Source: Candidatus Velesiimonas alkalicola (GTDB lineage Bacteria; Omnitrophota; Gorgyraeia; Velesiimonadales; Velesiimonadaceae). Taken from it: a stretch of DNA of 64,000 bases. Every line of letters starts with the position of its first letter. The first letter of the stretch is position 1. The notes beneath the pieces are model-generated. The model worked only from the letters and a program-made list of their open reading frames with translations, had not been told where the DNA came from and searched no databases. The stretch spans positions 2,060-66,059 of the forward strand of contig NDHX01000006.1 of the NCBI GenBank assembly GCA_013626165.1, in the 5' to 3' direction. Of this stretch, positions 5,077 to 64,000 are shown one piece after another. A program made the position numbers and the translations under genes.

Positions 5077-5152
5077 TGGAGCGGGTGATGGGATTTGAAC
5101 CCACGACTTCCACCTTGGCAAGGTGGCGCTCTACCGGCTAAGCTACACCCGC
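5077..5152 (-). tRNA. tRNA-Gly (anticodon GCC), CCA encoded
   Basis: The reverse complement GCGGGTGTAGCTTAGCCGGTAGAGCGCCACCTTGCCAAGGTGGAAGTCGTGGGTTCAAATCCCATCACCCGCTCCA folds as a cloverleaf. Confidence 0.9.
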
Positions 5153-5177
5153 AGAAAAGTACAGAAACTACCCCAAG

Positions 5178-5260
5178 TGCGAGGGGCGGGAGTTGAACCC
5201 GCAATCGCAAAGCGAACTAGCTCCTAGGGCTAGCGCGTATGCCAGTTCCGCCACCCTCGC
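5178..5260 (-). tRNA. tRNA-Leu (anticodon TAG), long variable arm
   Basis: The reverse complement GCGAGGGTGGCGGAACTGGCATACGCGCTAGCCCTAGGAGCTAG... has a type II tRNA-Leu architecture with a T-arm GCGGGTTCAACTCCCGC. Confidence 0.85.
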
Positions 5261-5288
5261 TCAAAGCGGAATTTTGGCTCACACATAA

Positions 5289-5364
5289 TGGTACGCCCTG
5301 ATGGAATTGAACCATCAACCAACGGATTAAGAGTCCGCTGCTCTACCGATTGAGCTAAGGGCGC
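5289..5364 (-). tRNA. tRNA-Lys (anticodon CTT), CCA encoded
   Basis: The reverse complement GCGCCCTTAGCTCAATCGGTAGAGCAGCGGACTCTTAATCCGTTGGTTGATGGTTCAATTCCATCAGGGCGTACCA folds as a cloverleaf. Confidence 0.85.
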
Positions 5365-28733: not shown

Positions 28734-30095
28734 CTAAAGACAATACCCAACCAGTGTGCAATTGTGAACATCTTTGACAAGAACATTGAAAATCTGCCCC
28801 GGTATAAACCTCGTTGGATATGGCAAGCTATCCAGTGGGGTAAACCTATCAACAGGGAAAACAATATTTCTGTTCTTTCTTGTATGTCCTTTTGCCCATA
28901 TGTTAGCGTCTATAGATTTTTTGACAATTTTTTCAACAAGGACTTCCTGTTCTGTGCCTATCAATCTTCTTAAATTATATTTTGCTATAGAAGAAACAAG
29001 GTCAAGTGCTACCCTGTGCCTTGACTTTTTATCGTTTATACTTACATCATCGGAAAGATTATAGGCAGATGTTCCTTTCCTCGTAGAATATTTATACACA
29101 AATGCACCGTCAAACCTTATTTGCTTTAAAACAGAAATCGTATCTTTGAAATCTGTATCTTTTTCCGATGGAAAGCCTACAATTATATCCGTTGTTATAG
29201 AGCACTGCGGAATTATAGACTTACATTTTTCTATCAGTTTAAGATAATATTCCCTTGTATATCCTCTGTTCATAAGCGTTAATATCCTGTCTGAACCGGA
29301 CTGTAAGGGAAGATGGATATGTTCGCACACATTGGGAAGTTCAGCAATTGTTTTAAGAAGTTTTTCATCCACATCCCTTGGATGGCTTGTCAAAAACCTT
29401 ATCCTTTTTATATCAGTTTCTTTATTTATGATTTTCAAAAGTTCAGTGAAATCACATTCTTGATATTTATATGCAGACACATTCTGTCCTAAGAGTGTAA
29501 CCTCCTTTACTCCTTTATTTGTCAAATCTTTTATTTCCCGGACAATCTCTTGCACCGGACGGTTTTTTAATTTTCCTCTTGCATAAGGAACAACACAATA
29601 TGAACAAAAATTTTCGCACCCCTTTGCAATATTTACAAATGCCGATACTTTGCTGTTTACAGATATACTTGTATTATCAGGATAATTCCTTCCAACCTCA
29701 AGTATATTTTTCTCTCCGTTTATTACTCTCTGAATAATATTGCCCATTAAACCTGTATCATCAGGTCCACATGCGAAAGAAAGTCCGGGTATTTTTTCAA
29801 AAACTTCCTCCCTGAGCAACTGCACAGAACATCCTACAAGCCCAACAACCGCCCCTGGTTTCTTTGATATTACATCTTTTGCATACTCTATCGCCCTGTT
29901 TTGAGCATGCTCTCTTACGGAACAGGTATTAAATAGGACAACATCAGCATCCTCAATACCATCAGACACAACAAATCCATCTGTCAGAAGACAGGACAAA
30001 ATCATCTGACTATCCCTTTTATTCATCTGACATCCGAAGGTACGGATAAAGATTTTTTTTGGCATATTTTTATAAGTTTTTGATTCTTTTGACAT
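28734..30095 (-). CDS. miaB: tRNA-i6A37 methylthiotransferase
   Basis: 453 aa with an N-terminal MTTase domain (TFGCQMN), a radical-SAM CxxxCxxC (CENFCSYC) and a TRAM domain. Confidence 0.9.
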   Translation of the reverse strand: MSKESKTYKNMPKKIFIRTFGCQMNKRDSQMILSCLLTDGFVVSDGIEDADVVLFNTCSVREHAQNRAIEYAKDVISKKPGAVVGLVGCSVQLLREEVFEKIPGLSFACGPDDTGLMGNIIQRVINGEKNILEVGRNYPDNTSISVNSKVSAFVNIAKGCENFCSYCVVPYARGKLKNRPVQEIVREIKDLTNKGVKEVTLLGQNVSAYKYQECDFTELLKIINKETDIKRIRFLTSHPRDVDEKLLKTIAELPNVCEHIHLPLQSGSDRILTLMNRGYTREYYLKLIEKCKSIIPQCSITTDIIVGFPSEKDTDFKDTISVLKQIRFDGAFVYKYSTRKGTSAYNLSDDVSINDKKSRHRVALDLVSSIAKYNLRRLIGTEQEVLVEKIVKKSIDANIWAKGHTRKNRNIVFPVDRFTPLDSLPYPTRFIPGQIFNVLVKDVHNCTLVGYCL

Positions 30096-30219
30096 TGTAG
30101 TTTCTTTTCTGTTTCTGAAAACAAAAAATTAAAGTGGGCAAAAAGAAAAAAAGAAATTTTTTTGTGGTAACGCCCCGCCGATGGCGGGGGCGATCTTGAT
30201 GTTTTTAAAAAGCAGCCCG
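30053..30219. repeat. 167-bp direct repeat A (terminator hairpin + miaB promoter + first 14 codons of miaB)
   Basis: Identical, with one substitution and a poly-T length difference, to 37856-38021. It contains the GC hairpin cgccccgccgatggcgggggcg followed by a T-run. Confidence 0.9.
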
Positions 30220-31712
30220 GCGAGCTGTTTCTTATCAGCAAAGTCTATTTTTTCTTTGCTGTCATCGTACCCATCAAGAAAGTCTTTTACTCTGTTAATA
30301 TAGCCCTCTGAGTGTTCTCGTTCAATTTCTCTAAGTTCATATCCTGCAAAGAGTTTTTTCAAGTTTTTTTCTTCGTTTCTGAGGCTTGAATTTTTCTCGC
30401 GATAGACATCTTCGCCAAGCAAATTTTCCAGATAAGCGTCTGTAAGTCTTGACTGTTTTTCTTGGTTAATTTTCAGCTTATCTTTGAACAAACCCACGTC
30501 ATTGCGAGGTGTTGACATCCCTGATGTCAACACCGAAGCAATCTCAAGACCAGTCCCTGTCGTCCATCGGCTCTGTTTTAGGCGTTCGTTTTGGACCAAC
30601 TGAGCAACTATTTTTGTGGCCTCCGGCTCTATATCCTCTGCCTTCACTGCCCTGTTGGTACAATTTATATGGCTTGAATAAGGACCTGAACACCTATACT
30701 AACGTTTCTTCCTATTCAAGCGATGGTTTGATATGGACGATACACCTGTATACCTATGATTGCACTTAGCACAAGCGATAAGACCTGTCAAAAGATACTC
30801 TTGACTTTTTGTTCTCGGTCGCCATGTTCGTGTCTTGTTCGCCAGCAGCTTCTGAACTTCTACAAAATCTTCTCCATCTATGATAGGCTTATGCCTTCCC
30901 TGTGCAACAAGAACTTTAGAAGGATCATTTCTGATATATTTGTAATGTTTTTTGGTTTTCTGATTCTTGTCATAGTGTTTTTTATTCCAAACAATCTTAC
31001 CGGTGTAAATCTGATTCTTAAGTATGTCACAAACAAACTTGTTGTAAAATTGTTTGCCTGTCCTTGTCTTGTATCCTTTCCTATCAAGGTATGCTGCTAT
31101 GTCGTGTGTGCTCTTGCCGGAAATATACATCGTATATATCAGCTTAACGATATTCGTTTCTCTTTCTTCAACCTCTAATAGCTTCTTGGTTTTGTTATAA
31201 GCATAGCCGAATGGCGCAAATCGTGCGCCTTGCCAGTTGCCTTGTTGAACGCCTTTCATCATGCCAGGGAATACCCTTTCAGCAATCCGGTTTCTTTCAA
31301 ACTCGGCAAACGAGCCAAGCTGCTGAAACATCAGTGTCCCTGCTGATGTCGTTGTGTCAAAAGGTTCTGTTGCAGATTTGAAGCCAACGCCATAGGAAGA
31401 TAGCTCATCCACCAGCATAAGCAAGTCTTTAAGGTTGCGACTAAAGCGATCGATCTTATGGACCAACACAAGCTCAAACCTCTTTGCCTTCGCATCAGCA
31501 AGCAACTGTTGTAAAGCCGGGCGACGCGTGGAATATGCACTTATGCCATCATCGCAATACACCTTGAAAACTTCATATCCTTCACGATTAGCAAAGGATT
31601 CAAGGTATTCTTTTTGTACTTCTAAAGAATAACCTTCTTTGGCTTGGTCTTCAGTAGATACTCGTGTATAAATTGCTATTCTTAGCTTTTCATTCATTTT
31701 TAATATCCACAA
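30129..31712 (-). pseudogene. Large serine recombinase (integrase), split by a frameshift into 337-aa and 172-aa ORFs
   Basis: The N-terminal resolvase catalytic domain (IYTRVSTEDQ, Ser nucleophile) is followed by a recombinase domain and a zinc ribbon (CAKCNHRY). The coiled-coil C-terminal part continues in another frame from 30647. The last ~30 codons run into repeat A. Confidence 0.75.
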
Positions 31713-31733: not shown

Positions 31734-32318
31734 TTATTTTAATCCCTTTATTAAACTTTCTATCGTATCAACAAAATCTATCGCATTTTTATAAACCTTT
31801 TCAGCATCTTTTTGCGCAATAACTGCATCTGCCTTATACTGTGCTGTATTTCTTTTGGATTTCGTGGCCCACATTCTATTAACATATTTCTCATCAAGCT
31901 TTTTTGCAGATTTTATCTTCTCGATGTCCTCTGATTCTATGGTCTTTTCTTTGAAAACAAAATGATATTCTAAACCCTCAATAAGGCTTTCATGGCTTTG
32001 GGCTTTTATCCCTATTGCGGCCAACGCAGCTGTTGCCGCATGAAACATTGCATAATATCCACAGCTTATAGTCCAATCATATCCAATATAATCGGCACTT
32101 ACTTTTAGTCTTTTCTTGCTCTCGTTATCTTCCGAAACCTCCATAAGTAAAGAACCTGTCTCGATATTATGCCTTGCTTTATCAACATGATATTTTACCA
32201 GCGCTGTAATTGTGGGGTCTACTTTTAAATCGCCATTATCAAAATAACCTTTTACTTTTATTTTTAGCATTTCTTTCTTCAAATCACTCATTTTATTACC
32301 TCCAATATTAGTTCCCAA
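31734..32318 (-). CDS. HEPN-domain protein (partner of the upstream nucleotidyltransferase)
   Basis: 194 aa with an all-helical HEPN-like pattern and a KRNTAQY segment. It overlaps the upstream MNT gene. Confidence 0.6.
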   Translation of the reverse strand: MGTNIGGNKMSDLKKEMLKIKVKGYFDNGDLKVDPTITALVKYHVDKARHNIETGSLLMEVSEDNESKKRLKVSADYIGYDWTISCGYYAMFHAATAALAAIGIKAQSHESLIEGLEYHFVFKEKTIESEDIEKIKSAKKLDEKYVNRMWATKSKRNTAQYKADAVIAQKDAEKVYKNAIDFVDTIESLIKGLK

Positions 32319-32911
32319 AATTTCTCTGCACCAAACAATATTACTTTATTTTTTAAGATCTCCTTGGCTACATTATGCTCCTTATCTTTTAACATTGTTA
32401 ATAAATTTGTTGGCTCAGAAACCAAAGGGTTTATTTCGACACCAAAACCTTTTGACAAGGCGACACATTCCATATCAATAATTTCATCATATTTCTTTTT
32501 TGAAGGGATAAGGATAAAAAGATCGATATCGCTTTTTTTAAAGTCGGTCCCTTTAGCCAAAGATCCAAATAGAACAACAGAAAGTAAGTTAAAATCTGTT
32601 TTCTTAGGCAATACCGAAAGAAGCTTTTCAACTACGAAGAAAATTTTATCCCTCTTCTTTAAAAAATCTTCGGCTATCTGATTCGATATTTTAACAAAAC
32701 TCGTTTTGACTTCTGGATTCTTGTAGTTAGGCCTGCAATACTTGCGGTTCGAACGCTGGTCGACAATTATAATATCCTTCTCTTTTAATTCTTCGACCTG
32801 CCTGTATACATAACTATAAGAAATATTTGTTTTCGTTGCTAACTCATTTATTGTAAACTGGGCATATACATCATCATAGAATAGCCTTATTATTTTATCT
32901 TTCATGTTCAA
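32288..32911 (-). CDS. Winged-HTH + minimal nucleotidyltransferase (MNT) protein
   Basis: 207 aa with an N-terminal wHTH and an NTase motif LFGSLAKG...DIDLFIL (GS...DxD). Confidence 0.7.
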   Translation of the reverse strand: MNMKDKIIRLFYDDVYAQFTINELATKTNISYSYVYRQVEELKEKDIIIVDQRSNRKYCRPNYKNPEVKTSFVKISNQIAEDFLKKRDKIFFVVEKLLSVLPKKTDFNLLSVVLFGSLAKGTDFKKSDIDLFILIPSKKKYDEIIDMECVALSKGFGVEINPLVSEPTNLLTMLKDKEHNVAKEILKNKVILFGAEKFWELILEVIK

Positions 32912-33042: not shown

Positions 33043-33503
33043 CGGCTGCTTTTTAGCAGCGGCTAGGGAGCTGATGCAGTCCCGCCGCAGGCGGGGCAAA
33101 AACATCAAAATCGCCCACAAAAAGCTCTTTTCTTTTGAATTTTTTGCCCCCTTTAATTTTTTATTTTTTGAGGAAAAACAAAAATGCCAAACCAAGAACC
33201 TAAAAAGAGTTACAAATTTTTTGCCTCCAAAGTCTTTATCCGGACTTTCGGCTGGCCTTATGCTTCGGCTTTACAATATACTTTATTTGTTCTTTAAGAT
33301 TCAATGAACTTTAGGCACCGCCTGCTTAGGCAGGCTCCCGGTGTGGTGTTTGCACCGTTCAGCTTCGCTGTCGCTCAGCTTCACTCCACGCTCGCTTGGA
33401 CGCTCGCTAAAGTGGTAATGCAATAGTCCGATTCGGCTTTGTGTTGGACGCATTTTGGGTGGCGGCAAAATGCGCCCAACACCCTGCGTCCTCAACCTCG
33501 CAA
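33043..33503. repeat. Inverted copy (B) of the ~450-bp unit that is also present at 37584-38021
   Basis: It holds a diverged reverse complement of the 167-bp miaB-promoter repeat (33043-33200), then cttcggctttacaatatactttatttgttctttaagattcaatgaac, then a GC-rich ~190-bp segment (33315-33503) nearly identical to the reverse complement of 37584-37772. Confidence 0.85.
33315..33503 (+). ncRNA. Candidate structured ncRNA, copy 1 (unknown class), GC-rich with nested stems
   Basis: ~60% GC in a ~35% GC context. Multiple perfect stems (CACCG-CCUGC-UUAG-GCAGG-..-CGGUG; GCAUUUUG/CAAAAUGC inside GUUGG/CCAAC). It is duplicated exactly, and the only ORF is a duplicated composition artefact. Confidence 0.4.
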
Positions 33504-33594
33504 AAACTAAATCCGTTTTCCTTTTTTATTGCGGCCGCCGCCTGAACCGCCGTTTAGAAGAATTTTTAAAGTTTAACATATATGGGACCCTCCC

Positions 33595-34059
33595 TCAAAA
33601 TTTAAATTGAGCCGGAGGAGAATCTTTTTTGATAATCTCTTTAATTAAATCAACAAACTTTTCAGCCATATTCAAGGCATTGCTGGCTTCTGTCTTTGAA
33701 ATAGATATATCAACATCGTATGTAAATATGTTGCGCTTCTTCCTCATCTCGTCAAAACGAGCTACGATGATTTCAAATTCTTTTCCTAAGAAATGCGACA
33801 TAAATTCCACAACGGTTTTGTGCTGATAGCCGTCTGTAGGACGAAAACCTTTTAGGAGCATAAATGCTCTTCCCGCATGCAACATTGCTAAATATGCGAC
33901 TGTATAAGCAATACCTTCATCGATATCCAAATTAGCTTTTGATGTTTTTAAATCTTTAAATGAACGCGAAATAAGCTTTTCGACTGCACGGTAATTGCAT
34001 TTCTGTCTCTTTAATAGCCCTTTATTTAGGTATTCTTCAATAAATTTTTCAAAAGTCAT
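33595..34059 (-). CDS. HEPN-domain protein
   Basis: 154 aa with the R-x4-6-H-like motif region RKKRNIFTYD and a helical bundle. It overlaps the MNT gene. Confidence 0.65.
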   Translation of the reverse strand: MTFEKFIEEYLNKGLLKRQKCNYRAVEKLISRSFKDLKTSKANLDIDEGIAYTVAYLAMLHAGRAFMLLKGFRPTDGYQHKTVVEFMSHFLGKEFEIIVARFDEMRKKRNIFTYDVDISISKTEASNALNMAEKFVDLIKEIIKKDSPPAQFKF

Positions 34060-34621
34060 TTTTATCTCCTACTAAAAATATTTTCGAATCCTCTAAAAGG
34101 TCTGATATGAAGGGATCCTTTTCTCTCTTCTTCTTTATAAAATCTCTCTTCGAATATAAGCTATAATTTATTTCTCTTTTTAGAACTTTTTCTAATTTTC
34201 CTATTCCTGTTACTAATTTATCTTCGTCTACTTTGCCTATTATAAACAAATCAATGTCGCTTTTAGCGTTCTCTTCATTTTTGGCGAACGAACCATAAAT
34301 AAAAGCTGCTTCAACACCTTTTATCTTTTCAAGGATATCTTTTAACAACCCTTTTATGCCGATTGTTTTAAACACCATGCTTTTCATCTCTTCAAATAGC
34401 GGATAAGACTTGTTGAGAAAGAAATAAACGAGATTCCCTTTTCTGGATGAGGCAAAAATGCCAGCTTCTTCCAGATGAAGCAATTCCTTGCGAATCATAC
34501 TTACAGGGATATCGAGAATACGCTCAAGCTCTCTCAGGTAATATTCGCTCTGTGGATTTGTGTAAAATAGCCTAAACAGCGCCTTTCGTGTTTTAGATTT
34601 GAAAACGTTTGTTATATCCAT
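34049..34621 (-). CDS. HTH + minimal nucleotidyltransferase (MNT) protein
   Basis: 190 aa with an NTase motif YGSFAKNE...DIDLFII and an N-terminal HTH. Confidence 0.7.
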   Translation of the reverse strand: MDITNVFKSKTRKALFRLFYTNPQSEYYLRELERILDIPVSMIRKELLHLEEAGIFASSRKGNLVYFFLNKSYPLFEEMKSMVFKTIGIKGLLKDILEKIKGVEAAFIYGSFAKNEENAKSDIDLFIIGKVDEDKLVTGIGKLEKVLKREINYSLYSKRDFIKKKREKDPFISDLLEDSKIFLVGDKNDF

Positions 34622-34737
34622 CTCTTGTAATCCTTTCGTATTACAATTGTAATACTTTTATATAACAATGTCAAACTAAAATTTCACCGTTTTCCTCATT
34701 TATGCTGGTCAAGCAGCATGTATTATAGAAATGCGAT

Positions 34738-36030
34738 TTATATATTTAAAACCTCTCCATCGGTTAGAATCCTGACATTTTTGAAAAGATTAGGATAACT
34801 GTTCGGGTCAAAAGTATGAATCGGAATTAGTATTCTTGGCTTCATTGCTGATGTAAAGGCTTTTAGATCCTCTGGCTTGGCATGCCCGCTTGTATGAATA
34901 TATTCCAGAGTCAGTCTCTTGCTTTTACAAAACGCCCTAAATCCTATGGAAAGATATCCATCCCACATAGAATAAGCTATTGTGGCACCTGCTACATCAA
35001 TGATCTTTTTTAGTATCAAAGGGAAAACAGAATTATCGCGTGCGAGCATAAGAATCCTATTTTTATTTTTGCTAATTTCAGGCATTTCAATCTTTCTTTT
35101 GTTGTAAGCATAGAGCAGGTTTTTATGGCCTGCCTGAGCAAGCGCCTTCGCGTGTGCATCGAGAAATTTAACTCTCACATTTTTCCAATTAAACTGAGGA
35201 ATTTTCCCAGAGACTTGCTTGAGTTTATCCAGAATAAAGGCGGTATAAATATCAATAACAAAGGTTGAATCTGTTTTGAGGCACGCCCTATACGCCGACA
35301 CTATCCGGTCAATATTTTGCGATGAGGCAAATAGAAAGGTTATATTTCTTCTCTCTGATATAATTTCTTCTAGCCGCCTTTCAACGTCTTCCTCAGTTTT
35401 ATACTGGGCATCCTCTCTGCCAAGAGCCGAACCCTCCATAAGCAGACAGTCTATATTTTGAGGTGGTCTCTTGACTATTTGATTAAATAATATTGCTTTT
35501 CTCCCATGGGCCCTGAAATCTCCTGAATAAAATAGCCTCTTGCCTTCTGTCTCAATTAGGAATGCAAGCGCATCAAAGGCAGAATGGTCAACCAGAAAAG
35601 GCGTAACATTAAAATCGCCTATGTTCAACTGCTTTTTATTACTAATCACCTTTGTATTTAGCTTGCCAACTTTGGTGGGAACAAAAATATTTGAAACTTC
35701 AATAAGAAGCTCGGCGCCCTTACTTAAATAAATCGGTATCTCTGGATTTACGTACTGAAGGAAGCCGTAATGATCAAGGTGGGAATGAGAAATCAAGATT
35801 CCATCAATGCCTTTTTTCTCATCCTTAAAAAGCCCTTTTATATCGGGAAGGATCTTCTGCTCTTTAAGCTCTTGAAGGGACTTACCTTTAAGCTGTTTTA
35901 CTTCGAACGGCTGATGGTCACGAGAAACCAAAGGTATGCCAAAATCGACTAGGATTCTATTATTGACTGTCTTTAACTCAACACAACTTCCGCCAATCTC
36001 ATGAGTACCACGATGGATGATTATTTGCAT
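34738..36030 (-). CDS. Metallo-beta-lactamase fold nuclease of the beta-CASP type (RNase J/CPSF/SNM1-like)
   Basis: 430 aa with HxHxDH (SHSHLDHYG), downstream His/Asp motifs (VDHSAF, YSGDFR), and C-terminal TSGHA/IPIHT beta-CASP-like motifs. Confidence 0.7.
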   Translation of the reverse strand: MQIIIHRGTHEIGGSCVELKTVNNRILVDFGIPLVSRDHQPFEVKQLKGKSLQELKEQKILPDIKGLFKDEKKGIDGILISHSHLDHYGFLQYVNPEIPIYLSKGAELLIEVSNIFVPTKVGKLNTKVISNKKQLNIGDFNVTPFLVDHSAFDALAFLIETEGKRLFYSGDFRAHGRKAILFNQIVKRPPQNIDCLLMEGSALGREDAQYKTEEDVERRLEEIISERRNITFLFASSQNIDRIVSAYRACLKTDSTFVIDIYTAFILDKLKQVSGKIPQFNWKNVRVKFLDAHAKALAQAGHKNLLYAYNKRKIEMPEISKNKNRILMLARDNSVFPLILKKIIDVAGATIAYSMWDGYLSIGFRAFCKSKRLTLEYIHTSGHAKPEDLKAFTSAMKPRILIPIHTFDPNSYPNLFKNVRILTDGEVLNI

Positions 36031-36896
36031 TGCTTAATCAAATTCTCCAATTTTATCGACGACACACTACCTATTGGATAATAAGTAATGGCTCTCTCGA
36101 TTTTTTCTTTAAATAAATCCTTAAACCTTCCTTTCAACTGATCGCGGTCAAATCCAAATATTATCAAAGGAACTGTAGGGCATATCTTCTCCGGTTCAGG
36201 TAAGGATATCTGGAATAAATCATTAACTATCTTCGTATAATTGTTATATGCCGCGATGATTTGGCCCTCTTTATCTTTGATTTGGTCAGTATATCTTCTT
36301 ATCTGTTCCACTACTTTTATGTTCTCAACCTTTTCTGCCCATATCTCGCTGTTTGAAAAGTGTTTTACCTCACAGAAGATTAATCTATTCTTTTCTTTTT
36401 CAAATAAGAGTATATCGATTCTATCCTGCAACCTATCTTCTTCTATCGCCTCAAATGAAACTTCGATATCCAAAACCACAACGCTCGAATTTTTCGTTTT
36501 TGAACTCGCGAACGAATGATTTTCATATATTTTAGAAACTCCTTGAGCTTCAACTCCTGAATATAAAGAACAATTTTCTTTTATCCTTTCATAGCCGTCG
36601 GTAAAACTTTGTATTTGTTTCAGATTCCCAAGCATTAGCTCGGTAATATACGCTTCGGGATATTCTTTATATGCCGAAGCATACTTAACGTGCGTTTTAA
36701 ATCCTTCTTTGTCATATGAGAATAATCTGCCACCATAATGATAAAAATCTATTACTTCATTTCGTATTGCCGGAAAAACTTCGCCATTATCCTTAATATC
36801 CGGCAACAATTGTTTATATAAAGGCTCCTCTATCAACTTTTTCTTCAATTCTTCATTCATTGTCCGCTTAAACTTCCACTTCTCTTCCTTGCTCAT
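36021..36896 (-). CDS. Hypothetical protein with a possible PD-(D/E)xK nuclease core
   Basis: 291 aa. The central VVLDIEVSF...DRIDILLFEKEKNRLIFCEVKH resembles a D...D/E-x-K restriction-endonuclease-fold motif. It overlaps the MBL gene by 10 nt and the TPR gene by 4 nt, so the three are translationally coupled. Confidence 0.35.
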   Translation of the reverse strand: MSKEEKWKFKRTMNEELKKKLIEEPLYKQLLPDIKDNGEVFPAIRNEVIDFYHYGGRLFSYDKEGFKTHVKYASAYKEYPEAYITELMLGNLKQIQSFTDGYERIKENCSLYSGVEAQGVSKIYENHSFASSKTKNSSVVVLDIEVSFEAIEEDRLQDRIDILLFEKEKNRLIFCEVKHFSNSEIWAEKVENIKVVEQIRRYTDQIKDKEGQIIAAYNNYTKIVNDLFQISLPEPEKICPTVPLIIFGFDRDQLKGRFKDLFKEKIERAITYYPIGSVSSIKLENLIKQCK

Positions 36897-37410
36897 GTTA
36901 ACCTCTCTGGTTTAATTAGCCTCTTCATAATGTCATCCACGCATCGCAGGGCATCTTTATCATTTGGACAAAGCTCAAGTCCTTTATCAAAAGAAAGTAA
37001 TGCGTCCCAATATCTGCCTTTCTTTTTTAACGCCATGCCCCTGTTAAACCATATGCAGACATTGCGTTGCGCTATTTTAAGCGCTTCCTCAAAACACTCC
37101 ATTGATTCTTGTTCTCTACTCATCCTTAATAAACACGCCCCTTTATTTTCTAGGGCATCAATATTTTTTGGATTAATCTCCAGGGCTTTATTATAGCACT
37201 TTAACTCTTCAGTATTCTTATCAAGAAGAAAAAAGCATATCCCTTACGAAACCACGCCACGTCATCTGATGGATTTAGTTCTATGGCGCGATCATAACAA
37301 GCAACGGCATCCTCGTACATTTCTGCCTTACAGTAAATCTCTGCTGATTCATGCCAGTTAACAGCTTCTTTCATTATTTCTCCAAAAATAAAAAATCCTC
37401 CGCCGGTCAT
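36893..37410 (-). pseudogene. TPR-repeat protein, apparently split into two ORFs (37410-37201 and 37123-36893)
   Basis: Both fragments show TPR consensus (W-LG-Y-A-F-A-P). A ~75-bp gap with a frame change lies between them. Confidence 0.5.
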
Positions 37411-37583
37411 AACTTTACCAACGAAGGTTTTACTTTTTTAACGTCCGGGATTTCCCCCCTTCAAACACGGAACAAATATCTAATTTTAACTTTATTATAT
37501 CAAGTTTATTTACTTTGTCAACGATTTTCAGGACCATTTGACTTACCCAGCAGACACACGAGAATACAGTGTAAAATACTACA

Positions 37584-37772
37584 TTGCGAGGTTGAGGACG
37601 CAGGGTGTTGGGCGCATTTTGCCGCCACCCAAAATGCGTCCAACACAAAGCCGAATCGGACTATTGCATTACCACTTTAGCGAGCGTCCAAGCGAGCGTG
37701 GAGTGAAGCTGAGCGACAGCGAAGCTGAACGGTGCAAACACCACACCGGGAGCCTGCCTAAGCAGGCGGTGC
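37584..37772 (-). ncRNA. Candidate structured ncRNA, copy 2 (reverse complement of copy 1)
   Basis: Near-identical to the reverse complement of 33315-33503. It is positioned ~90 bp downstream (minus sense) of the duplicated miaB promoter copy. Confidence 0.4.
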
Positions 37773-37855
37773 CTAAAGTTCATTGAATCTTAAAGAACAA
37801 ATAAAGTATATTGTAAAGCCGAAGCATAAGGCCATCCGAAAGTTCGAATGTAGAC

Positions 37856-38021
37856 TTTTTTTGGCATATTTTTATAAGTTTTTGATTCTTTTGACATTGT
37901 AGTTTCTTTTCTGTTTCTGAAAACAAAAAATTAAAGGGGGCAAAAAGAAAAAAAGAAATTTTTTTGTGGTAACGCCCCGCCGATGGCGGGGGCGATCTTG
38001 ATGTTTTTAAAAAGCAGCCCG
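37856..38021. repeat. 167-bp direct repeat C (copy of the miaB terminator/promoter/first 14 codons)
   Basis: Matches 30053-30219, including atgtcaaaagaatcaaaaacttataaaaatatgccaaaaaaa (MSKESKTYKNMPKK). Confidence 0.9.
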
Positions 38022-38177
38022 CACATCTCTTTCTTGGTAGCAAAATCTATTTTTTCCTAAACGTGCGGGTTTAATTAATCCTTTTCTCTCCCAGATCCCA
38101 AGTGTAGCTGGGCAAACTTTTAAAGACTTGGAGACTATACCGATAGTATAAACTGGTTCTTTATATCCATATTCCAT
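38007..38177 (-). CDS. Small MerR-family HTH protein (56 aa), candidate excisionase/recombination directionality factor
   Basis: MEYGYKEPVYTIGIVSKSLKVCPATLGIWERKGLIKPARLGKNRFCYQERDVRAAF has a MerR/Xis-type HTH. It is below the 60-aa cutoff of the ORF track, and its last codons lie inside repeat C. Confidence 0.45.
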   Translation of the reverse strand: MEYGYKEPVYTIGIVSKSLKVCPATLGIWERKGLIKPARLGKNRFCYQERDVRAAF

Positions 38178-38254
38178 CCTAAACCTCCTCTTTTTCTCAA
38201 TATAGAGGTTTTTATATCATATATAAATACTATTGTCAAATGGATTGCAAGTAA

Positions 38255-59307: not shown

Positions 59308-60036
59308 TCAAATCCCATCTCCATCTACATTTTTCAAAGGCCGCGTATGGATTCCGCATTCGCCGCCGCATTTGCTTGTGCCAACCCAGCGTCCGGCACG
59401 CTCATTTTCGTCGGTGGTAATTTGCGTGCAGGTAAAACAATCAAGAGAGCGGTAGCCTTCTTGATAAATCGGATTTACCCGCACAGAATATACTGCCAGA
59501 TATTGCCAGACCTCCCGTTCTTTCCAGATTAAAATCGGATTTAATTTAAGCAACCCTTTATCGCGCTCCTCTACCTCTTTATAATCGGTACGGGTGCGGC
59601 CTTCGGTGCAACGTAAACCCGTTACCCAGCAGGTCGCCTCCATCTCTCTAATTGCGCGACTGGTCGGCTCTACCTTTAATAAATCGCAGCATCGGTTTGG
59701 ATCTGTCCGATACAGCCCTTCGGGAATATCCGCATCATTCTTATAGATTTTTAGTTCCGGATATCTTTCAACCTCCTGGAACATAAATTCAATGGTCTCT
59801 TTGTGTTGGAATCTGGTGGTGACAATAAACCCTCTTATTTTGGGGCTGACACGCTTGGCTAGATCCCATACCGCCACTGAATCTTTACCCAGGCTGTTGG
59901 CCACAACCAATCCGTCACCGTAAACTTTTAATGCTTCGGAGATGAGTTCAATTGACCTGTCCACTTTCTGCTTGAAACTCAATGTTTCCACCAACACCTT
60001 CACATCAGCAGTTTTTGCCTTTTCTAACAATCCCAT
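59308..60036 (-). CDS. cysH: Phosphoadenosine-phosphosulfate/adenylyl-sulfate reductase (thioredoxin-dependent)
   Basis: 242-aa PAPS_reduct fold (SLGKDS) with a C-terminal KCGGECGIH, equivalent to the ECGLH catalytic Cys motif. Confidence 0.75.
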   Translation of the reverse strand: MGLLEKAKTADVKVLVETLSFKQKVDRSIELISEALKVYGDGLVVANSLGKDSVAVWDLAKRVSPKIRGFIVTTRFQHKETIEFMFQEVERYPELKIYKNDADIPEGLYRTDPNRCCDLLKVEPTSRAIREMEATCWVTGLRCTEGRTRTDYKEVEERDKGLLKLNPILIWKEREVWQYLAVYSVRVNPIYQEGYRSLDCFTCTQITTDENERAGRWVGTSKCGGECGIHTRPLKNVDGDGI

Positions 60037-60099
60037 TTTAACTTCCTCCTTTTTTGATTATTTTGTCTATTATATTAGTAGACAAATATGGTAAAAAAA

Positions 60100-60408
60100 T
60101 TACGACAGCGCCTTTGCCAAATCATCTTTTAAGTCAATTTTATTTTCAATGCCGACGGATAGACGGATAAGATTTTCTTTTATCCCCCGTTTTGACCTCT
60201 CTTCTGCAGATAGAGAACTGTGAGTCATTTTTGTAGGATAACAGGCGAGCGATTCAACCCCGCCCAGCGACTCCGCCAGCAGGAACAATTTTAATTTTGA
60301 TACGAATTTTTCAACGGCGGGAAAGCCGCCTTTTATCTCAAAACTTATCATCCCTCCGAAACCGCTCATCTGTTTTTTTGCAAGATTATATTGTTTACTA
60401 CCCGGCAA
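60100..60408 (-). pseudogene. C-terminal ~100-aa remnant of a Cys/Met-metabolism PLP enzyme (cystathionine gamma-synthase/lyase family)
   Basis: 102 aa matching only the C-terminal domain (GFGGMISFEIKGG...LAESLGGVESL...HPATM-like). Its AT-rich codon usage is like the host. It lies 30 bp downstream of a complete GC-rich homologue. Confidence 0.7.
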
Positions 60409-60438
60409 TCCCGGATAATAGACTCGTTGTCGGGCTGA

Positions 60439-61578
60439 CTAACCTTCAGTTTTTGCCAGCGCCTGCTCCAAATCCTCGATTATATCCTCGATATTCTCCA
60501 ATCCCACGGAGAGTCTCACCAGGTTATCGAAGATACCCACCTTCTCCCGGAACTCCTTCGGCATCGAGGCATGGCTCATGGTAGCCGGGTGCTCTACGAG
60601 GGAATTAGCGCCGCCAAGGGACTCCGCTAGAATGAATAGCTCGACACCTCTCAAGAACGAGTTAACCTCGCCATTTATCTCGAAGGACACCATCCCGCCG
60701 AAACCGTCCATCTGCCGGGCGGCGATCTCATGACCCGGATGAGACTTCAGTCCGGGATAGAATACCCTGCTTACCCGGGGGTGTTTCTCCAGAAATGAGG
60801 CGACCGCGGCAGCAGACATCGCATGCTGCTTAACCCTCAAAGGCAGGGTCTTGATCCCGCGAAGCACCAGCCAGCAGTCAAAGGGTGAGGCACAGGTGCC
60901 CAGAGCATTCAAGAGAAATTGCACCTTTTGGGTTAGATCATCGGTAGCGGTCACTATCGCCCCACCGACAACATCGCAGTGGCCGTTGAGATACTTGGTA
61001 GTAGAATGCACCACCAAATCAACGCCATACTCAATTGGCCGCAGGAAACAGGGCGTGGGAAAGGTATTATCCGCCATGGTCAACAGATTATGCTTTCGGG
61101 CAATATCTACCACCATCTCTACATCCGTGATATTTAGCAGCGGATTGGAGGGGGTCTCGATCCATATCATCCTGGTATTGGGCCTTATGGCATCCTCGAT
61201 CTCCCGTCTGTTATTCAGACGTAGGAAGGTAAACTCCAATCCGAAGTTGGTCATCACATCTTGAAACAGACGGTAGGTTCCGCCGTAGATGTCATCTCCG
61301 GAGATCACATGGTCTCCGGCCTTCAGCAAATATATTGCGGTGGCTTCGGCAGCCATGCCGGTGGCAAAGGCAAATCCCGCCTTTCCGCCCTCGAGCCTGG
61401 CGATGGTCTCCTCCAACACCTTCCTGGTGGGGTTGGAGGTGCGAGAATAGTCGTAGCCCCTGGTCTTGCCCACATCCTCAAAGGCAAAGGTGGAGGTCTG
61501 ATAGATCGGTGTGATTAATGCGCCGGTGGTGGGATCGGGCTTTTCGCTGCCATGAATCGCTAATGTTTCGAATCTCAT
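60439..61578 (-). CDS. Cystathionine gamma-lyase/gamma-synthase / O-acetylhomoserine sulfhydrylase family PLP enzyme
   Basis: 379 aa, full-length Cys_Met_Meta_PP pattern, ~55% GC. Confidence 0.85.
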   Translation of the reverse strand: MRFETLAIHGSEKPDPTTGALITPIYQTSTFAFEDVGKTRGYDYSRTSNPTRKVLEETIARLEGGKAGFAFATGMAAEATAIYLLKAGDHVISGDDIYGGTYRLFQDVMTNFGLEFTFLRLNNRREIEDAIRPNTRMIWIETPSNPLLNITDVEMVVDIARKHNLLTMADNTFPTPCFLRPIEYGVDLVVHSTTKYLNGHCDVVGGAIVTATDDLTQKVQFLLNALGTCASPFDCWLVLRGIKTLPLRVKQHAMSAAAVASFLEKHPRVSRVFYPGLKSHPGHEIAARQMDGFGGMVSFEINGEVNSFLRGVELFILAESLGGANSLVEHPATMSHASMPKEFREKVGIFDNLVRLSVGLENIEDIIEDLEQALAKTEG

Positions 61579-61720
61579 ATTTCTTCTCCTTCCTTTTCTC
61601 TTTGCAGGGGGGCTTCTCTATCCCCACTGAAGCCTCCAACATCTCCGGTCGCCTTTCGAGCCTGTCCTGATACTCATCAGCACCGGTCCGATCGCCTCAG
61701 CCGTGGGATCGGGTAGCCTT

Positions 61721-62737
61721 TCATGCAGTTGCTTCCGAATCGAAAGAGAATAACGGAGTGGACACATATCTCTCACCCGAGTCAGGGAAGACAACGACAA
61801 TGAGTTTCCCCTTGTTTTGCGGCCTTTTCGCCACCTGTAAAGCTGCCCACATGGCTGCCCCCGAAGATATGCCACAGAGTATCCCTTCTTCTTTAGCCAC
61901 TCTTCTGGCTGTAGTGAAGGCATCTTCATTTGTTACAGTGATGACCTCATCAAGAATTTTGCGATTTAGCACCTTCGGCACAAAACCAGCGCCAATCCCC
62001 TGTATACGATGCGGTCCTGGTCTACCTCCGGAAAGCACCGGAGATGCTTCTGGTTCCACCCCGATTGCTTGAAAAGAAGGCTTGCGCTTCTTAATTACCT
62101 CCGATACCCCGGTAACCGTCCCTCCTGTACCGATACCTGCAACCAGGATATCCACTCTACCACCGGTATCCTCCCAGATTTCCTCCGCCGTGGTTAGACG
62201 ATGGACATGTGGATTAGCCAGATTTTCAAACTGCTGGGGGACAAAGCTGCCCCGGATCTGGCGATGCAGCTCCTCTGCCTTGCTAATAGCGCCCTTCATC
62301 CCCTCTGAACCTGGTGTAAGTACAACCTCAGCCCCTAATATCTGCAGAATCTTCCGGCGCTCTATCGACATCGTCTCGGGCATAGTTAAAACCAGGCGAT
62401 ATCCCATGGCGGCGCAGGCAAGAGCCAACCCAATCCCGGTGTTCCCGGAGGTAGGCTCTATAATCACCATCCCCGGCTTAAGCAACCCCACTCTCTCTGC
62501 TGCCTCGAGCATGGCTGCGCCGATTCTATCCTTCACGCTGTTTAAGGGATTAAACGACTCCAGCTTGGCTACTACCTCGGCTCCGCAATCGCGTGTCAGC
62601 CGATTTATCCTGACAAGAGGAGTGCAGCCAATTACCCGGGTTATATCCTGGTAAATCTTACCTCGAAAATTCTTCTCCCGAATCGGAACTTCATCCGGAG
62701 ATTCAATTTGATTTATGTTCATCCATCTTCTCCTCAA
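61721..62737 (-). CDS. cysK: Cysteine synthase (O-acetylserine sulfhydrylase)
   Basis: 338 aa with SVKDR PLP-lysine and TSGNTG motifs. GC-rich. Confidence 0.85.
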
Positions 62738-63613
62738 TTAAATAACATAATCTAAAGCCTCGCCAATAACATCGAAGCGATAAATCTGGAAAATACGGTT
62801 CTCCAACTCCACTAATTCTTTGTTGCCACGCATTCTCGGTCTGGGGACATCTACGGAAATGATATTGCGGACCGTACCCGGCTGAGGTGAAAATACGATT
62901 ATGCGGTCAGCAAGATATACCGCCTCCTCAATGTCATGAGTTACGAAAACGACAGTCTTTTGCATAATTTTCCAGATGTTTAAAAGATCATCCTGTAGTT
63001 TTTCCCGCGAAAGAGCATCAATTGCCGCAAAGGGCTCATCCATCAGGATAATCTTTGGTTCCACCGAAAGAGCCCTAGCCAGGGCAACACGCTGACGCAT
63101 TCCTCCTGAAAGTTGGGAGGGATATCTATTTTCAGCACCGCTCAAACCCACAAGGCTTAAGTACCTTCTAGCCAGTTGCTCCCTTTCCCCGCTCAATACA
63201 CCACGCAGTTTCAAGGTAAAAAGCACGTTTTCTAATGCGGTCATCCATGGATAAATACTATAATCCTGGAAAATCATAGCAATATCAAACTTCGGGGTGT
63301 CTCGAAACAGGTTATTGGCGATCGGTGACAGGAAGCGGTATTTCTTTTGATAAGCATCCATTTCCTTGCGTGTGTGAGGGAGTGGTTCTAATACCATCTT
63401 ATCCTGCATGTAGACCTGTCCCTCAGATGGGGCCTGTAACCCTGCCAGGATTTCCAGGAAAGTAGACTTGCCGCAACCGGTAGGACCAACGATAGCCACA
63501 AACTCGCCATCTTCGATTTTTAATGAGACGGATAAAACTGCAGTATTCCCCTCGGCTATTCCATTAGGGTTAATTACTGAAAAGAACTTGGTGATTTCCC
63601 TGGCTTCGATCAT
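62738..63613 (-). CDS. ABC transporter ATP-binding protein of the nitrate/sulfonate/taurine (NitT/TauT) type
   Basis: 291 aa with Walker A GPTGCGKST, signature LSGGMRQR and Walker B ILMDEPF. Confidence 0.8.
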   Translation of the reverse strand: MIEAREITKFFSVINPNGIAEGNTAVLSVSLKIEDGEFVAIVGPTGCGKSTFLEILAGLQAPSEGQVYMQDKMVLEPLPHTRKEMDAYQKKYRFLSPIANNLFRDTPKFDIAMIFQDYSIYPWMTALENVLFTLKLRGVLSGEREQLARRYLSLVGLSGAENRYPSQLSGGMRQRVALARALSVEPKIILMDEPFAAIDALSREKLQDDLLNIWKIMQKTVVFVTHDIEEAVYLADRIIVFSPQPGTVRNIISVDVPRPRMRGNKELVELENRIFQIYRFDVIGEALDYVI

Positions 63614-63619
63614 GGCTGA

Positions 63620-64000
63620 TTACCTCCCCGCCTTCCAGAAAGCGAGTTTAAGTTCAAGGTGCTTCATGATTTCAATGAGAAACCAGCCCATAAAACCCAG
63701 GGTAAGCATACAAACCACCATCCTGTCTATGCGAAAGAATTCCTTGGATTCCACCAAAAGCCAGCCAATGCCATTAGGGGCGCCGTACATCTCGGCTATT
63801 ACCAGCATCACCAGCCCCAGGGCTATGCCGATTTTAATCCCCATAATCACAGAGCCAAGCGCAGCAGGAACATAGACATGCTTAATCAAAGTAAATTCAC
63901 TGGCACCATAAACCCGCGCCGAGGCAATATACCTTGGCTCAGTATCTTTCACCGCCTGATAAGTGTTAAAAAGAATGGGATAAAAAGCACCCAGGAAAAC
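63620..64000 (-). CDS. ABC permease (SsuC/TauC-like), 5' end beyond the window
   Basis: C-terminal TM segments of a binding-protein-dependent permease. The reading frame stays open to position 64000. Confidence 0.7.
   Translation of the reverse strand, partial: VFLGAFYPILFNTYQAVKDTEPRYIASARVYGASEFTLIKHVYVPAALGSVIMGIKIGIALGLVMLVIAEMYGAPNGIGWLLVESKEFFRIDRMVVCMLTLGFMGWFLIEIMKHLELKLAFWKAGR

What the first reader, a model, noticed from the sequence alone, without database searches (positions are those of the whole stretch)
34738..37410. Translationally coupled TPR / PD-(D/E)xK-like / beta-CASP MBL nuclease operon: candidate uncharacterised defence module
Three minus-strand genes overlap by 4 and 10 nt: a TPR protein (split), a 291-aa protein with a D...D/E-x-K-like core, and a 430-aa metallo-beta-lactamase beta-CASP protein.

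They sit between two MNT/HEPN modules on an integrase-bearing island. That context is typical for phage-defence or abortive-infection cargo.

I do not recognise this nuclease + nuclease + TPR-sensor arrangement as a named system. The operon lies directly downstream (minus sense) of a duplicated promoter and a structured RNA element.
Basis: inference. Interest (0 to 1): 0.75.

Follow-up and report, generated by a model that had tools for sequence, protein, structure and literature searches.

The report
Conserved two-nuclease gene pair, likely defence
Two overlapping genes, one for a restriction-enzyme-like nuclease from a family with no name and one for an RNase J-like metallo-nuclease, form a pair conserved across many bacterial groups and usually found among anti-phage genes, so it is a credible but untested new defence system.

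Summary
The MBL gene is at 34738-36030, the 291-aa gene at 36021-36896, and the two TPR pieces at 36893-37123 and 37201-37410, all on the minus strand, with 10-nt and 4-nt overlaps.

The 291-aa protein (P291) models confidently as a PD-(D/E)xK nuclease. Its catalytic residues E116, D161, E176-x-K178 and Q198xxxY202 are invariant. Its nearest solved folds are Shedu, Upx, NucS and Can2, all only distantly. It matches nothing in Pfam, NCBIfam, PADLOC or PHROGs.

The 430-aa protein is a complete beta-CASP nuclease, closest to PDB 2AZ4 and RNase J, but far below the RNase J family cut-off.

The real unit is the P291 + MBL pair. In 80 species-level genome loci, 62 of the 72 that can be assessed have the two genes adjacent on the same strand. 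Both gene orders occur, many bacterial groups are represented, and the link holds at 24-29% P291 identity. Neighbours are typically restriction, GmrSD, ABC-3C, WYL, toxin-antitoxin and transposon genes. No phage copies were found.

The TPR gene accompanies the pair only in the closest relatives found, and here it carries a frameshift.

The pair does not lie between the two MNT/HEPN modules. TPR is not a conserved sensor. The upstream element is not detectably structured RNA.

My reading is a new candidate nuclease-based defence module whose mechanism is inferred, not shown.

The parts
37494..37521 (-). Promoter-like site for the operon (TTGACA, 16 nt spacer, TG-extended TATAAT), about 120 nt upstream of the TPR start codon
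   Evidence: 12 of 12 consensus positions plus a TG extension, the best match in 33400-38200. This is a consensus match only and is not proof of function.
36893..37374 (-). TPR gene, about 154 aa when intact, broken by one frameshift in a T-run at about 37222-37243. Its stop overlaps the P291 start by 4 nt. It accompanies the pair only in the closest relatives found.
   Evidence: TPR_1, TPR_2 and TPR_11 hits on both pieces. (the intact 154-aa orthologue in L090, L091 and L092 aligns in two frames at 75-81% identity). (no TPR hit in 80 other loci).
36021..36896 (-). P291: a 291-aa protein with an N-terminal alpha/beta domain (about residues 1-130) and a C-terminal PD-(D/E)xK nuclease domain. 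Key residues are E116, D143/E145, D161, E176-x-K178 and Q198xxxY202. The family has no Pfam entry.
34738..36030 (-). A 430-aa beta-CASP metallo-beta-lactamase nuclease, RNase J-like but without the RNase J C-terminal domain. Its start overlaps the P291 stop by 10 nt.
   Evidence: Lactamase_B_2 and RMMBL. (TIGR00649 at 90.6 bits against a cut-off of 400). (H82xH84xD86H87, H149, D171, E199, H379-x-S381-G382-H383 and H405 at 95% or more across 48 partner-linked homologues). (nearest structures are 2AZ4, then RNase J, then aCPSF1/CPSF73).

Best explanation
The conserved unit is a two-gene nuclease module. One gene encodes P291, a roughly 290-aa protein with a small N-terminal alpha/beta domain and a RecB/Shedu-like PD-(D/E)xK endonuclease domain. 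The other encodes a 430-aa RNase J-like beta-CASP metallo-nuclease. In this lineage a small four-repeat TPR gene is translationally coupled in front of the pair, and here it is frameshifted.

The module is accessory, horizontally mobile cargo. In this window it sits on an element inserted in the 5' end of miaB, next to a serine recombinase and two MNT/HEPN pairs.

The most likely function is defence against invading nucleic acid from phages or plasmids. Proposed mechanism, which is inferred and not shown: the two proteins act together. P291 recognises the target through its N-terminal domain and makes the first endonucleolytic cut, leaving a 5'-phosphate end. The beta-CASP enzyme keeps the RNase J-type HxSGH motif, which I recall (from memory) contributes to 5'-phosphate binding in RNase J, and its His at motif C. 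It would then degrade the nucleic acid 5'-to-3' from that end. Whether the substrate is DNA or RNA is open.
For: Shown:
(1) Tight linkage. 62 of 72 assessable species-level loci have P291 and the MBL adjacent on the same strand, 36 in P-then-M order and 26 in M-then-P order. Many bacterial groups are represented, and adjacency persists at 24-29% P291 identity. Overlapping or near-abutting reading frames recur.
(2) No third conserved gene was found.
(3) Both active sites are intact and conserved.
(4) The folds are a PD-(D/E)xK nuclease and a beta-CASP of the RNase J/CPSF branch.
(5) Distribution is patchy and mobile. The pair occurs on Rhizobium, Ochrobactrum and Cereibacter plasmids, next to Tn3 and Tn7-like transposition genes (TniB/TniQ, Mu-type transposase), and beside a MobF relaxase.
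(6) Pfam-annotated neighbours include a type I specificity subunit and Eco57I-type methylases, GmrSD, ScoMcrA_N, ABC-3C genes (CTD12, MC6/8, DUF2326), DruA, NurA/DUF87, WYL regulators, AbiEi, Fic, HigB, MNT/HEPN and DEAD-MZB helicases. PADLOC hits among 150 nearest neighbours include IetA, DRT reverse transcriptases, BrxL, WYL and restriction enzymes.
(7) There are no relatives in 50,697 phage records or in 2.9 million viral contigs.
(8) The operon has its own consensus promoter-like site.

Inferred: complex formation, the order of action, 5'-phosphate hand-off, and target sensing by the N-terminal domain.
Against: There is no experimental evidence, and literature searches found no description.

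Defence enrichment of the neighbourhoods was not measured against a background. Many neighbours are housekeeping genes. One P291-only locus sits among the housekeeping genes der, plsY, mnmE and gidA/gidB.

Ten loci have P291 without an adjacent MBL. The MBL family (more than 5000 hits) is larger than the P291 family. Some of its members pair with roughly 300-aa proteins not detectably related to P291, or have no partner inside a prophage-like element. The pairing is therefore strong but not obligatory.

By fold the MBL sits nearest RNases, so a DNA-degrading role is uncertain.

In this window the leading TPR gene is frameshifted, which could impair coupled translation of the pair.
Confidence: 0.5

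Rival explanations
1. Same module, but RNA-directed. The beta-CASP enzyme is an RNase, as RNase J and CPSF73 are. The system would work by degrading transcripts, either as abortive infection or growth arrest, or by selective attack on phage mRNA. P291 would act as sensor, regulator or RNA endonuclease.
Against: The motif C rule is empirical and not absolute. I recall that some RNase J enzymes also degrade single-stranded DNA. The closest structural relatives of P291 (Shedu, Upx, NucS, MunI, AddB, HamA) are DNases. The QhxxY motif is, from memory, typical of RecB-like DNA nucleases.
Confidence: 0.25
2. The pair serves the mobile elements that carry it rather than the host. Possible roles are DNA end processing or recombination during transfer or integration, plasmid competition, or countering host defences.
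For: The pair is found on plasmids beside a MobF relaxase and among Tn3, Mu-type transposase and TniB/TniQ genes with a metallophosphoesterase. It lies next to a D5-type primase in L095. Here it sits on a serine recombinase element.
Against: No linkage to any particular mobility gene is conserved. The flanking mobility genes differ in every locus. The family is absent from phage and viral collections. Defence systems are themselves typical cargo of such elements.
Confidence: 0.15
3. A housekeeping RNase J paralogue with an accessory protein, used in ordinary RNA turnover.
For: There is a weak RNase J family match (TIGR00649, 90.6 bits) and the nearest known-function folds are RNase J. JGI labels some homologues 'ribonuclease J'.
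Against: The score is far below the family cut-off of 400 bits. The RNase J C-terminal domain is missing (430 aa against about 555 aa). Distribution is patchy, including on plasmids and among transposon genes. The flanks vary. The partner is a PD-(D/E)xK nuclease.
Confidence: 0.05

Closest known systems
Shedu (SduA, DUF4263 PD-(D/E)xK defence nuclease)
   Different: P291 matches neither Pfam nor any PADLOC model, which I expect include DUF4263 and Shedu models. The structural match is weak (TM 0.27-0.39). Shedu is a single-gene system, as far as I recall, whereas P291 is coupled to a beta-CASP nuclease.
RNase J / archaeal RNase J (beta-CASP 5'-3' exo- and endoribonucleases)
   Same: The MBL plus beta-CASP architecture is the same. 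All motifs are conserved, including HxSGH and His at motif C. Foldseek E-values are 1e-21 to 1e-19 with TM 0.65-0.75.
   Different: It scores 90.6 bits against a cut-off of 400 for TIGR00649. It lacks the bacterial C-terminal dimerisation domain. It is an accessory gene linked to a PD-(D/E)xK partner.
PDB 2AZ4 (Enterococcus faecalis EF2904, structural-genomics protein of unknown function)
   Same: It is the closest solved structure by sequence (E 4.8e-24) and by fold (E 1.6e-26, TM 0.75), and has the same length, about 430 aa.
   Different: Identity is only 21-23%. The Enterococcus gene lies inside an ABC transporter operon (ATPase, two permeases, a putative solute-binding lipoprotein and a 5'-nucleotidase-like gene, by my reading of the unannotated ORFs), with no P291-like neighbour. 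It is probably not a functional orthologue.
Cas14 of type VII CRISPR-Cas (beta-CASP effector)
   Same: It is a beta-CASP nuclease with an immune role; it is the only one I know of, and the only one my literature search returned. There is a weak NCBIfam hit (NF045584, E 1.6e-8).
   Different: The score is 33 bits against a cut-off of 800. No cas genes or CRISPR array were seen among the ORFs or repeats of 28-42 kb. The partner is a PD-(D/E)xK protein rather than a Cas5/Cas7 complex.
Upx (dual PD-(D/E)xK defence nuclease)
   Different: Upx is a single 1212-residue protein with two PD-(D/E)xK domains. There is no sequence-level match, and it has no beta-CASP component.

Membership tests
beta-CASP subfamily of metallo-beta-lactamase nucleases (430-aa protein) | MBL motifs 1-4 (D; HxHxDH; H; D) plus beta-CASP motifs A (D/E), B (H) and C (H or V) | tested here: met
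   H82xH84xD86H87, H149, D171, E199, H383 (within HTSGHA) and H405 are conserved at 95% or more across 48 partner-linked homologues. Pfam gives Lactamase_B_2 and RMMBL. The fold matches RNase J and CPSF73. Motif assignment follows Callebaut et al. 2002, from memory.
RNase J (TIGR00649 / NF047419) | Score above the curated family cut-off, and presence of the C-terminal domain | tested here: not met
   90.6 bits against a cut-off of 400, and 65 bits against 820. The protein is 430 aa and ends right after motif C.
PD-(D/E)xK nuclease superfamily (P291) | The alpha-beta-beta-beta-alpha-beta core, with E on helix 1, D on strand 2 and (D/E)xK on strand 3 | tested here: met
RecB-like clade of PD-(D/E)xK nucleases | A QhxxY motif after the (D/E)xK strand | tested here: met
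   Q198 and Y202 are invariant in 20 homologues, and AddB is among the Foldseek hits. The clade definition is recalled from the literature and was not checked here.
Shedu (SduA) | A match to DUF4263 or to the PADLOC SduA models | tested here: not met
   There was no Pfam hit at E <= 0.01 and no PADLOC hit at E <= 0.01. Only a weak fold resemblance exists. That these libraries hold DUF4263 and SduA models is my expectation, not something I checked.
Any named or candidate defence system in PADLOC-DB v2.0.0 | An HMM match of either core protein | tested here: not met
   There were zero families for P291, the MBL and both TPR pieces. The adjacent MNT/HEPN pairs do match candidate system PDC-M05A/B.
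Anti-phage defence system (functional class) | Enrichment next to known defence genes | tested here: inconclusive
   Defence, toxin-antitoxin or mobile-element genes lie within 6-10 kb in most of the Pfam- or RefSeq-annotated contexts. No background-corrected statistic could be computed.
Anti-phage defence system (functional class) | Protection in a phage challenge | not testable with these tools
   This needs cloning and infection assays.
TPR repeat proteins (upstream gene) | Matches to TPR repeat profiles, and an intact reading frame | tested here: inconclusive
   TPR_1 and TPR_2 score above their cut-offs on both pieces. The frame is broken once relative to the intact 154-aa orthologue. The break could be a real mutation or an assembly error.

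The most novel reading that the evidence does not exclude
The P291 + beta-CASP pair is a previously unrecognised, widespread, stand-alone immune system found in many bacterial groups and in more than 1000 sequence clusters. A Shedu/RecB-like endonuclease and an RNase J-like 5'-phosphate-dependent exonuclease would act as an obligate cut-and-degrade pair. That would make beta-CASP enzymes innate-immunity effectors outside CRISPR type VII, with lineage-specific adaptors such as the TPR protein tuning what is sensed.
Probability: 0.4. Interest if true: 0.7.

Novelty: new variant of a known kind. Interest (0 to 1): 0.58.

Why it matters
If the pair is a defence system, it adds a new and widespread family. 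The P291 family has 1086 clusters at 50% identity and no Pfam, NCBIfam, PADLOC or PHROG model.

It would also give a second, CRISPR-independent immune role to RNase J-like beta-CASP nucleases. The PD-(D/E)xK + beta-CASP combination suggests a simple, testable division of labour between an endonuclease and a 5'-phosphate-dependent exonuclease.

Whatever the function, the work defines a 'dark' protein family, its catalytic residues and its obligate-looking partner. This improves annotation of genes now labelled 'hypothetical protein' or 'ribonuclease J / MBL fold metallo-hydrolase'.

Tried and rejected
- **Family libraries for P291.** Pfam, NCBIfam, PADLOC and PHROGs gave no hit. A profile search against PDB sequences gave only noise.
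- **Structure library.** The afdb50 library was unavailable.
- **Literature.** Six queries were tried: beta-CASP with anti-phage, EF2904, MBL fold with PDDEXK, metallo-beta-lactamase with restriction-like and two-gene, RNase J with defence island, and the DefensePredictor text. None describes this pair. One query was rejected for syntax.
- **Structured RNA upstream.** Rejected on the strand tested: fold z-score -0.68, and only chance-level eukaryotic snoRNA and miRNA matches in Rfam.
- **TPR as a conserved third component.** Rejected: no TPR hit in 80 loci and no third conserved cluster.
- **EF2904 (2AZ4) as a functional orthologue.** Rejected: it lies in an ABC transporter operon with no partner, and the 'phage' record holding it is an unverified bacterial-looking contig.
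- **Phage-borne copies.** None in INPHARED or IMG/VR.
- **Unifying all MBL partners into one family.** An iterated local HMM recruits the L086, L097 and L098 partners. The L088 and L096 partners stay unrelated by hhalign, although both show D...ELK-type motifs by eye.
- **Counting defence neighbours.** The tool reports only the top families, so no enrichment statistic was obtained.
Full report
**1. Observation**

The 430-aa ORF is at 34738-36030 and the 291-aa ORF at 36021-36896; they overlap by 10 nt. A 76-aa ORF at 36893-37123 overlaps the 291-aa ORF by 4 nt. A 69-aa ORF lies at 37201-37410. All four are on the minus strand.

Pfam assigns Lactamase_B_2 plus RMMBL to the 430-aa protein and several TPR families to both small ORFs. 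It assigns nothing to the 291-aa protein, called P291 below. The window is identical to a metagenome-assembled genome named 'bacterium Unc6' (P0001 and P0121 at 100% identity).

**2. The TPR pieces are one frameshifted gene**

The closest relatives of P291 (88-90% identity; loci L090, L091, L092) carry an intact 154-aa gene. Its stop overlaps the P291 start by 4 nt, exactly as in the window.

Its product aligns to the window in two reading frames. Residues 1-51 align at 37374-37222 and residues 45-154 at 37243-36914, at 75-81% identity. One indel in the T-rich run near 37230 therefore splits the gene. The true start is the ATG at 37374.

No TPR homologue was detected in any of the 80 other genome loci. 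Clustering of all flanking ORFs found no third conserved gene. The TPR gene is therefore a lineage-specific addition, not part of the conserved core.

**3. P291 is a PD-(D/E)xK nuclease from an undescribed family**

P291 matches nothing in Pfam, NCBIfam, PADLOC or PHROGs, and nothing by sequence in the PDB. The family is nevertheless large:
- 576 hits in the 90%-identity database.
- 1086 clusters at 50% identity in a full HMMER scan, of which 689 have E <= 1e-10.
- Most members are 275-320 aa. Some have N-terminal extensions of 100-240 aa.

An alignment of 20 members shows these invariant residues: E116, D143, E145, Q157-D-R-I-D161, E176, K178, Q198 and Y202.

The AlphaFold2 model is confident (pLDDT 87.5, pTM 0.87) and places these residues on a canonical core:
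- Helix 115-127 carries E116.
- Strand 139-149 carries D143 and E145.
- Strand 157-166 carries D161.
- Strand 171-179 carries E176-x-K178.
- Helix 194-208 carries Q198xxxY202. As I recall it, QhxxY is the signature of RecB-like nucleases.

**4. The 430-aa protein is a complete beta-CASP nuclease of the RNase J/CPSF branch, but not RNase J**

Across 48 partner-linked homologues the following are conserved at 95% or more: H82xH84xD86H87, H149, D171, E199, H379-x-S381-G382-H383 and H405.

By sequence the best PDB hit is 2AZ4 (EF2904, unknown function, E 4.8e-24), followed by RNase J enzymes. The AlphaFold2 model (pLDDT 85.2) gives the same order by Foldseek: 2AZ4 (E 1.6e-26, TM 0.75), bacterial and archaeal RNase J, then aCPSF1 and CPSF73.

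Against the NCBI RNase J family model it scores 90.6 bits where the cut-off is 400. The protein also ends just after motif C, so it lacks the RNase J C-terminal domain.

The EF2904-type gene in Enterococcus sits inside an ABC transporter operon without any P291-like neighbour. The nearest structure is therefore not a functional guide.

**5. The two genes are a conserved pair**

A profile-guided scan of one genome per species returned 80 loci encoding P291 relatives. A tblastn search with the window MBL gave this tally:

| Category | Loci |
|---|---|
| Adjacent same-strand MBL, P-then-M order | 36 |
| Adjacent same-strand MBL, M-then-P order | 26 |
| No adjacent MBL despite room | 10 |
| Too close to a contig end to judge | 8 |

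- Of the 10 loci without an adjacent MBL, two have one 2.6-4.5 kb away.
- The 62 adjacent loci include L015 and L053, which keep only partial MBL matches.

The record titles span Planctomycetota, Bacteroidota, Desulfobacterales and other 'Deltaproteobacteria', Chlorobiota, Fibrobacter, Spirochaetota, Clostridia, Cyanobacteriota, Gemmatimonadota, Acidobacteriota, Alpha- and Gammaproteobacteria, Patescibacteria and others.

Adjacency holds even where P291 identity falls to 24-29% while MBL identity stays at 34-39%. Overlapping or nearly abutting frames recur.

The link is not absolute:
- The MBL family is larger, with more than 5000 hits.
- Close MBL homologues pair with other proteins of roughly 300 aa. 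Some of these are distant P291 relatives: the L086, L097 and L098 partners are recruited by an iterated HMM, and the L086 partner shows IDIE...RFDLV...IEMK.
- Others are not detectably related, although they show D...ELK-type motifs by eye (L088 and L096).
- One MBL, in a prophage-like element, has no such partner.

**6. Context**

In the window the operon has its own perfect sigma-70 consensus match at 37521-37494. This is TTGACA, a 16-nt spacer and a TG-extended TATAAT, about 120 nt upstream of the TPR start. The MNT/HEPN pair downstream has a separate 11-of-12 promoter match at 34674-34646. I therefore treat MNT/HEPN as a neighbour, not a component.

Both MNT/HEPN pairs match the PADLOC candidate system PDC-M05A/B. 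Both lie downstream of the operon, so the operon does not sit between them.

Elsewhere the pair sits beside the following:

| Locus | Neighbours |
|---|---|
| L090/L091 | ABC-3C genes, GmrSD, Eco57I-type methylase |
| L092 | AbiEi, Fic, MNT, GIY-YIG, NOV_C, a methylase |
| L004 | WYL, ParD, ClpP, AAA, ERCC4, HigB, a DEAD-MZB helicase |
| L086 | ScoMcrA_N, a DEAD-MZB helicase |
| L095 | Type I specificity subunit, DruA, NurA, DUF87, GmrSD |
| L094 | WYL, a helicase-nuclease, VRR_NUC |
| L093 | AAA_23, DUF87, HipA |
| L089 (Rhizobium plasmid) | Eco57I-like methylase, GIY-YIG, MobF |
| L097 (Cereibacter plasmid) | Tn3, Mu-type transposase and TniB/TniQ genes |

PADLOC models hit IetA, DRT reverse transcriptases, BrxL, WYL and restriction enzymes among the 150 nearest neighbours. 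Many neighbours are ordinary metabolic genes, however, and I could not compute a background-corrected enrichment. No P291 relative occurs in the phage collection or in 2.9 million viral contigs.

**7. Interpretation**

- **Shown:** a real, widespread, accessory two-gene module encoding two catalytically intact nucleases.
- **Inferred from context:** a role in defence against phages or plasmids.
- **Inferred from enzymology (family knowledge, from memory):**
  - PD-(D/E)xK enzymes leave 5'-phosphate ends.
  - RNase J-type beta-CASP enzymes are 5'-monophosphate-stimulated 5'-to-3' exonucleases that use the conserved HxSGH region.

The most economical mechanism is therefore an endonuclease and exonuclease pair that cuts and then degrades.

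The substrate is open. The fold neighbours of the MBL and its His at motif C point to RNA. The fold neighbours of P291 and its QhxxY motif point to DNA.

Rival readings are given with their weights in the rival explanations:
- RNA-directed abortive infection.
- A function serving the mobile element itself.
- A housekeeping RNase J paralogue.

**8. Comparison and novelty**

The module is not a member of Shedu, RNase J, Cas14/type VII or any PADLOC v2 system; each was tested and not met. It belongs to the broad and well-known kind 'nuclease-based defence-island cargo', but with a new protein family and a new combination of enzymes. I rate it a new variant of a known kind and of moderate to high interest. 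It is a solid candidate for experimental testing rather than a surprise in principle.

**9. State of this particular copy**

P291 and the MBL are intact. Two other genes on the island are damaged: the leading TPR gene has a frameshift, and the island's serine recombinase has an in-frame TAG. Either the island is decaying or the assembly contains errors. Read-level checks would decide.

Noticed in passing
window 30031-30254 and 37833-38056: A 224-nt direct repeat at 93% identity brackets the whole island. Both copies carry a promoter region plus the first 22 codons of miaB (gene at 28734-30095), and similarity ends at TTCGGATG. This looks like attL/attR of an element inserted in the 5' end of miaB that brings its own replacement promoter and gene start.
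   Followed up: partly
window 33129-33503 versus 37584-37958: A third, inverted copy lies inside the island. It has a diverged miaB-like 5' end (MPNQEPKKSYKFFASKVFIRTFGW) joined to the same roughly 250-nt GC-rich arm at 94% identity, which makes it attP-like. The 4.08-kb segment holding MNT/HEPN #2 and the operon is therefore bracketed by 300-nt inverted repeats. The origin is unexplained; nested or tandem elements, or an inversion, are possible.
   Followed up: partly
window 30129-31712 (-): The large serine recombinase (Resolvase and Recombinase domains) is split by a single in-frame TAG at 30699-30701, inside what looks like the zinc-ribbon region. The 172-aa ORF at 30129-30647 is its C-terminal part in the same frame.
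   Followed up: yes
window 31734-32911 and 33595-34621 (-): Two MNT/HEPN pairs both match the PADLOC candidate system PDC-M05A/B (best E 2.5e-50 for the second MNT). A near-consensus promoter match at 34674-34646 precedes the second pair.
   Followed up: partly
L090 8598-9364; L092 8581-9365: In the closest relatives, two further small genes (106-112 aa and 149 aa) precede the TPR gene. The 149-aa protein has a D...ECK restriction-endonuclease-like motif. Neither gene is present in the window.
   Followed up: partly
P0059, P0065, P0083, P0113 (about 500 aa); P0078 (392 aa); locus L093: Some P291 family members carry an N-terminal extension of 100-240 aa with no Pfam match. At least one (L093) is still followed by the MBL gene.
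   Followed up: partly
L025, L028, L034 (Bacteroidota-type record titles): Here P291 is followed by a second P291-cluster ORF in tandem instead of an MBL gene.
   Followed up: no
L099 2150-9221 (Enterococcus contig deposited as 'phage Efs 1-1-1', UNVERIFIED_ORG): The EF2904/2AZ4-type MBL lies inside an ABC transporter operon (ATPase, two permeases and a putative solute-binding lipoprotein) followed by a 5'-nucleotidase-like gene. The record looks bacterial rather than viral.
   Followed up: partly
L097 5024-7859 (Cereibacter azotoformans pORIO1): A distant P291 homologue, the MBL gene and a metallophosphoesterase gene overlap one another by 4 nt. They lie on a plasmid between a Tn3-family transposase and TniB/TniQ genes.
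   Followed up: no
window 38007-38177 (-): A 56-aa MerR-type HTH ORF ends exactly where the repeat begins. It may be truncated or may be an excisionase-like gene of the element.
   Followed up: no
window 5080-5364 (-): There is a cluster of three tRNA genes.
   Followed up: no
window 60001-64000: G+C rises to 0.48-0.50, against about 0.37-0.40 in most of the window (up to 0.44 just before). No Rfam family reached its gathering threshold there.
   Followed up: no
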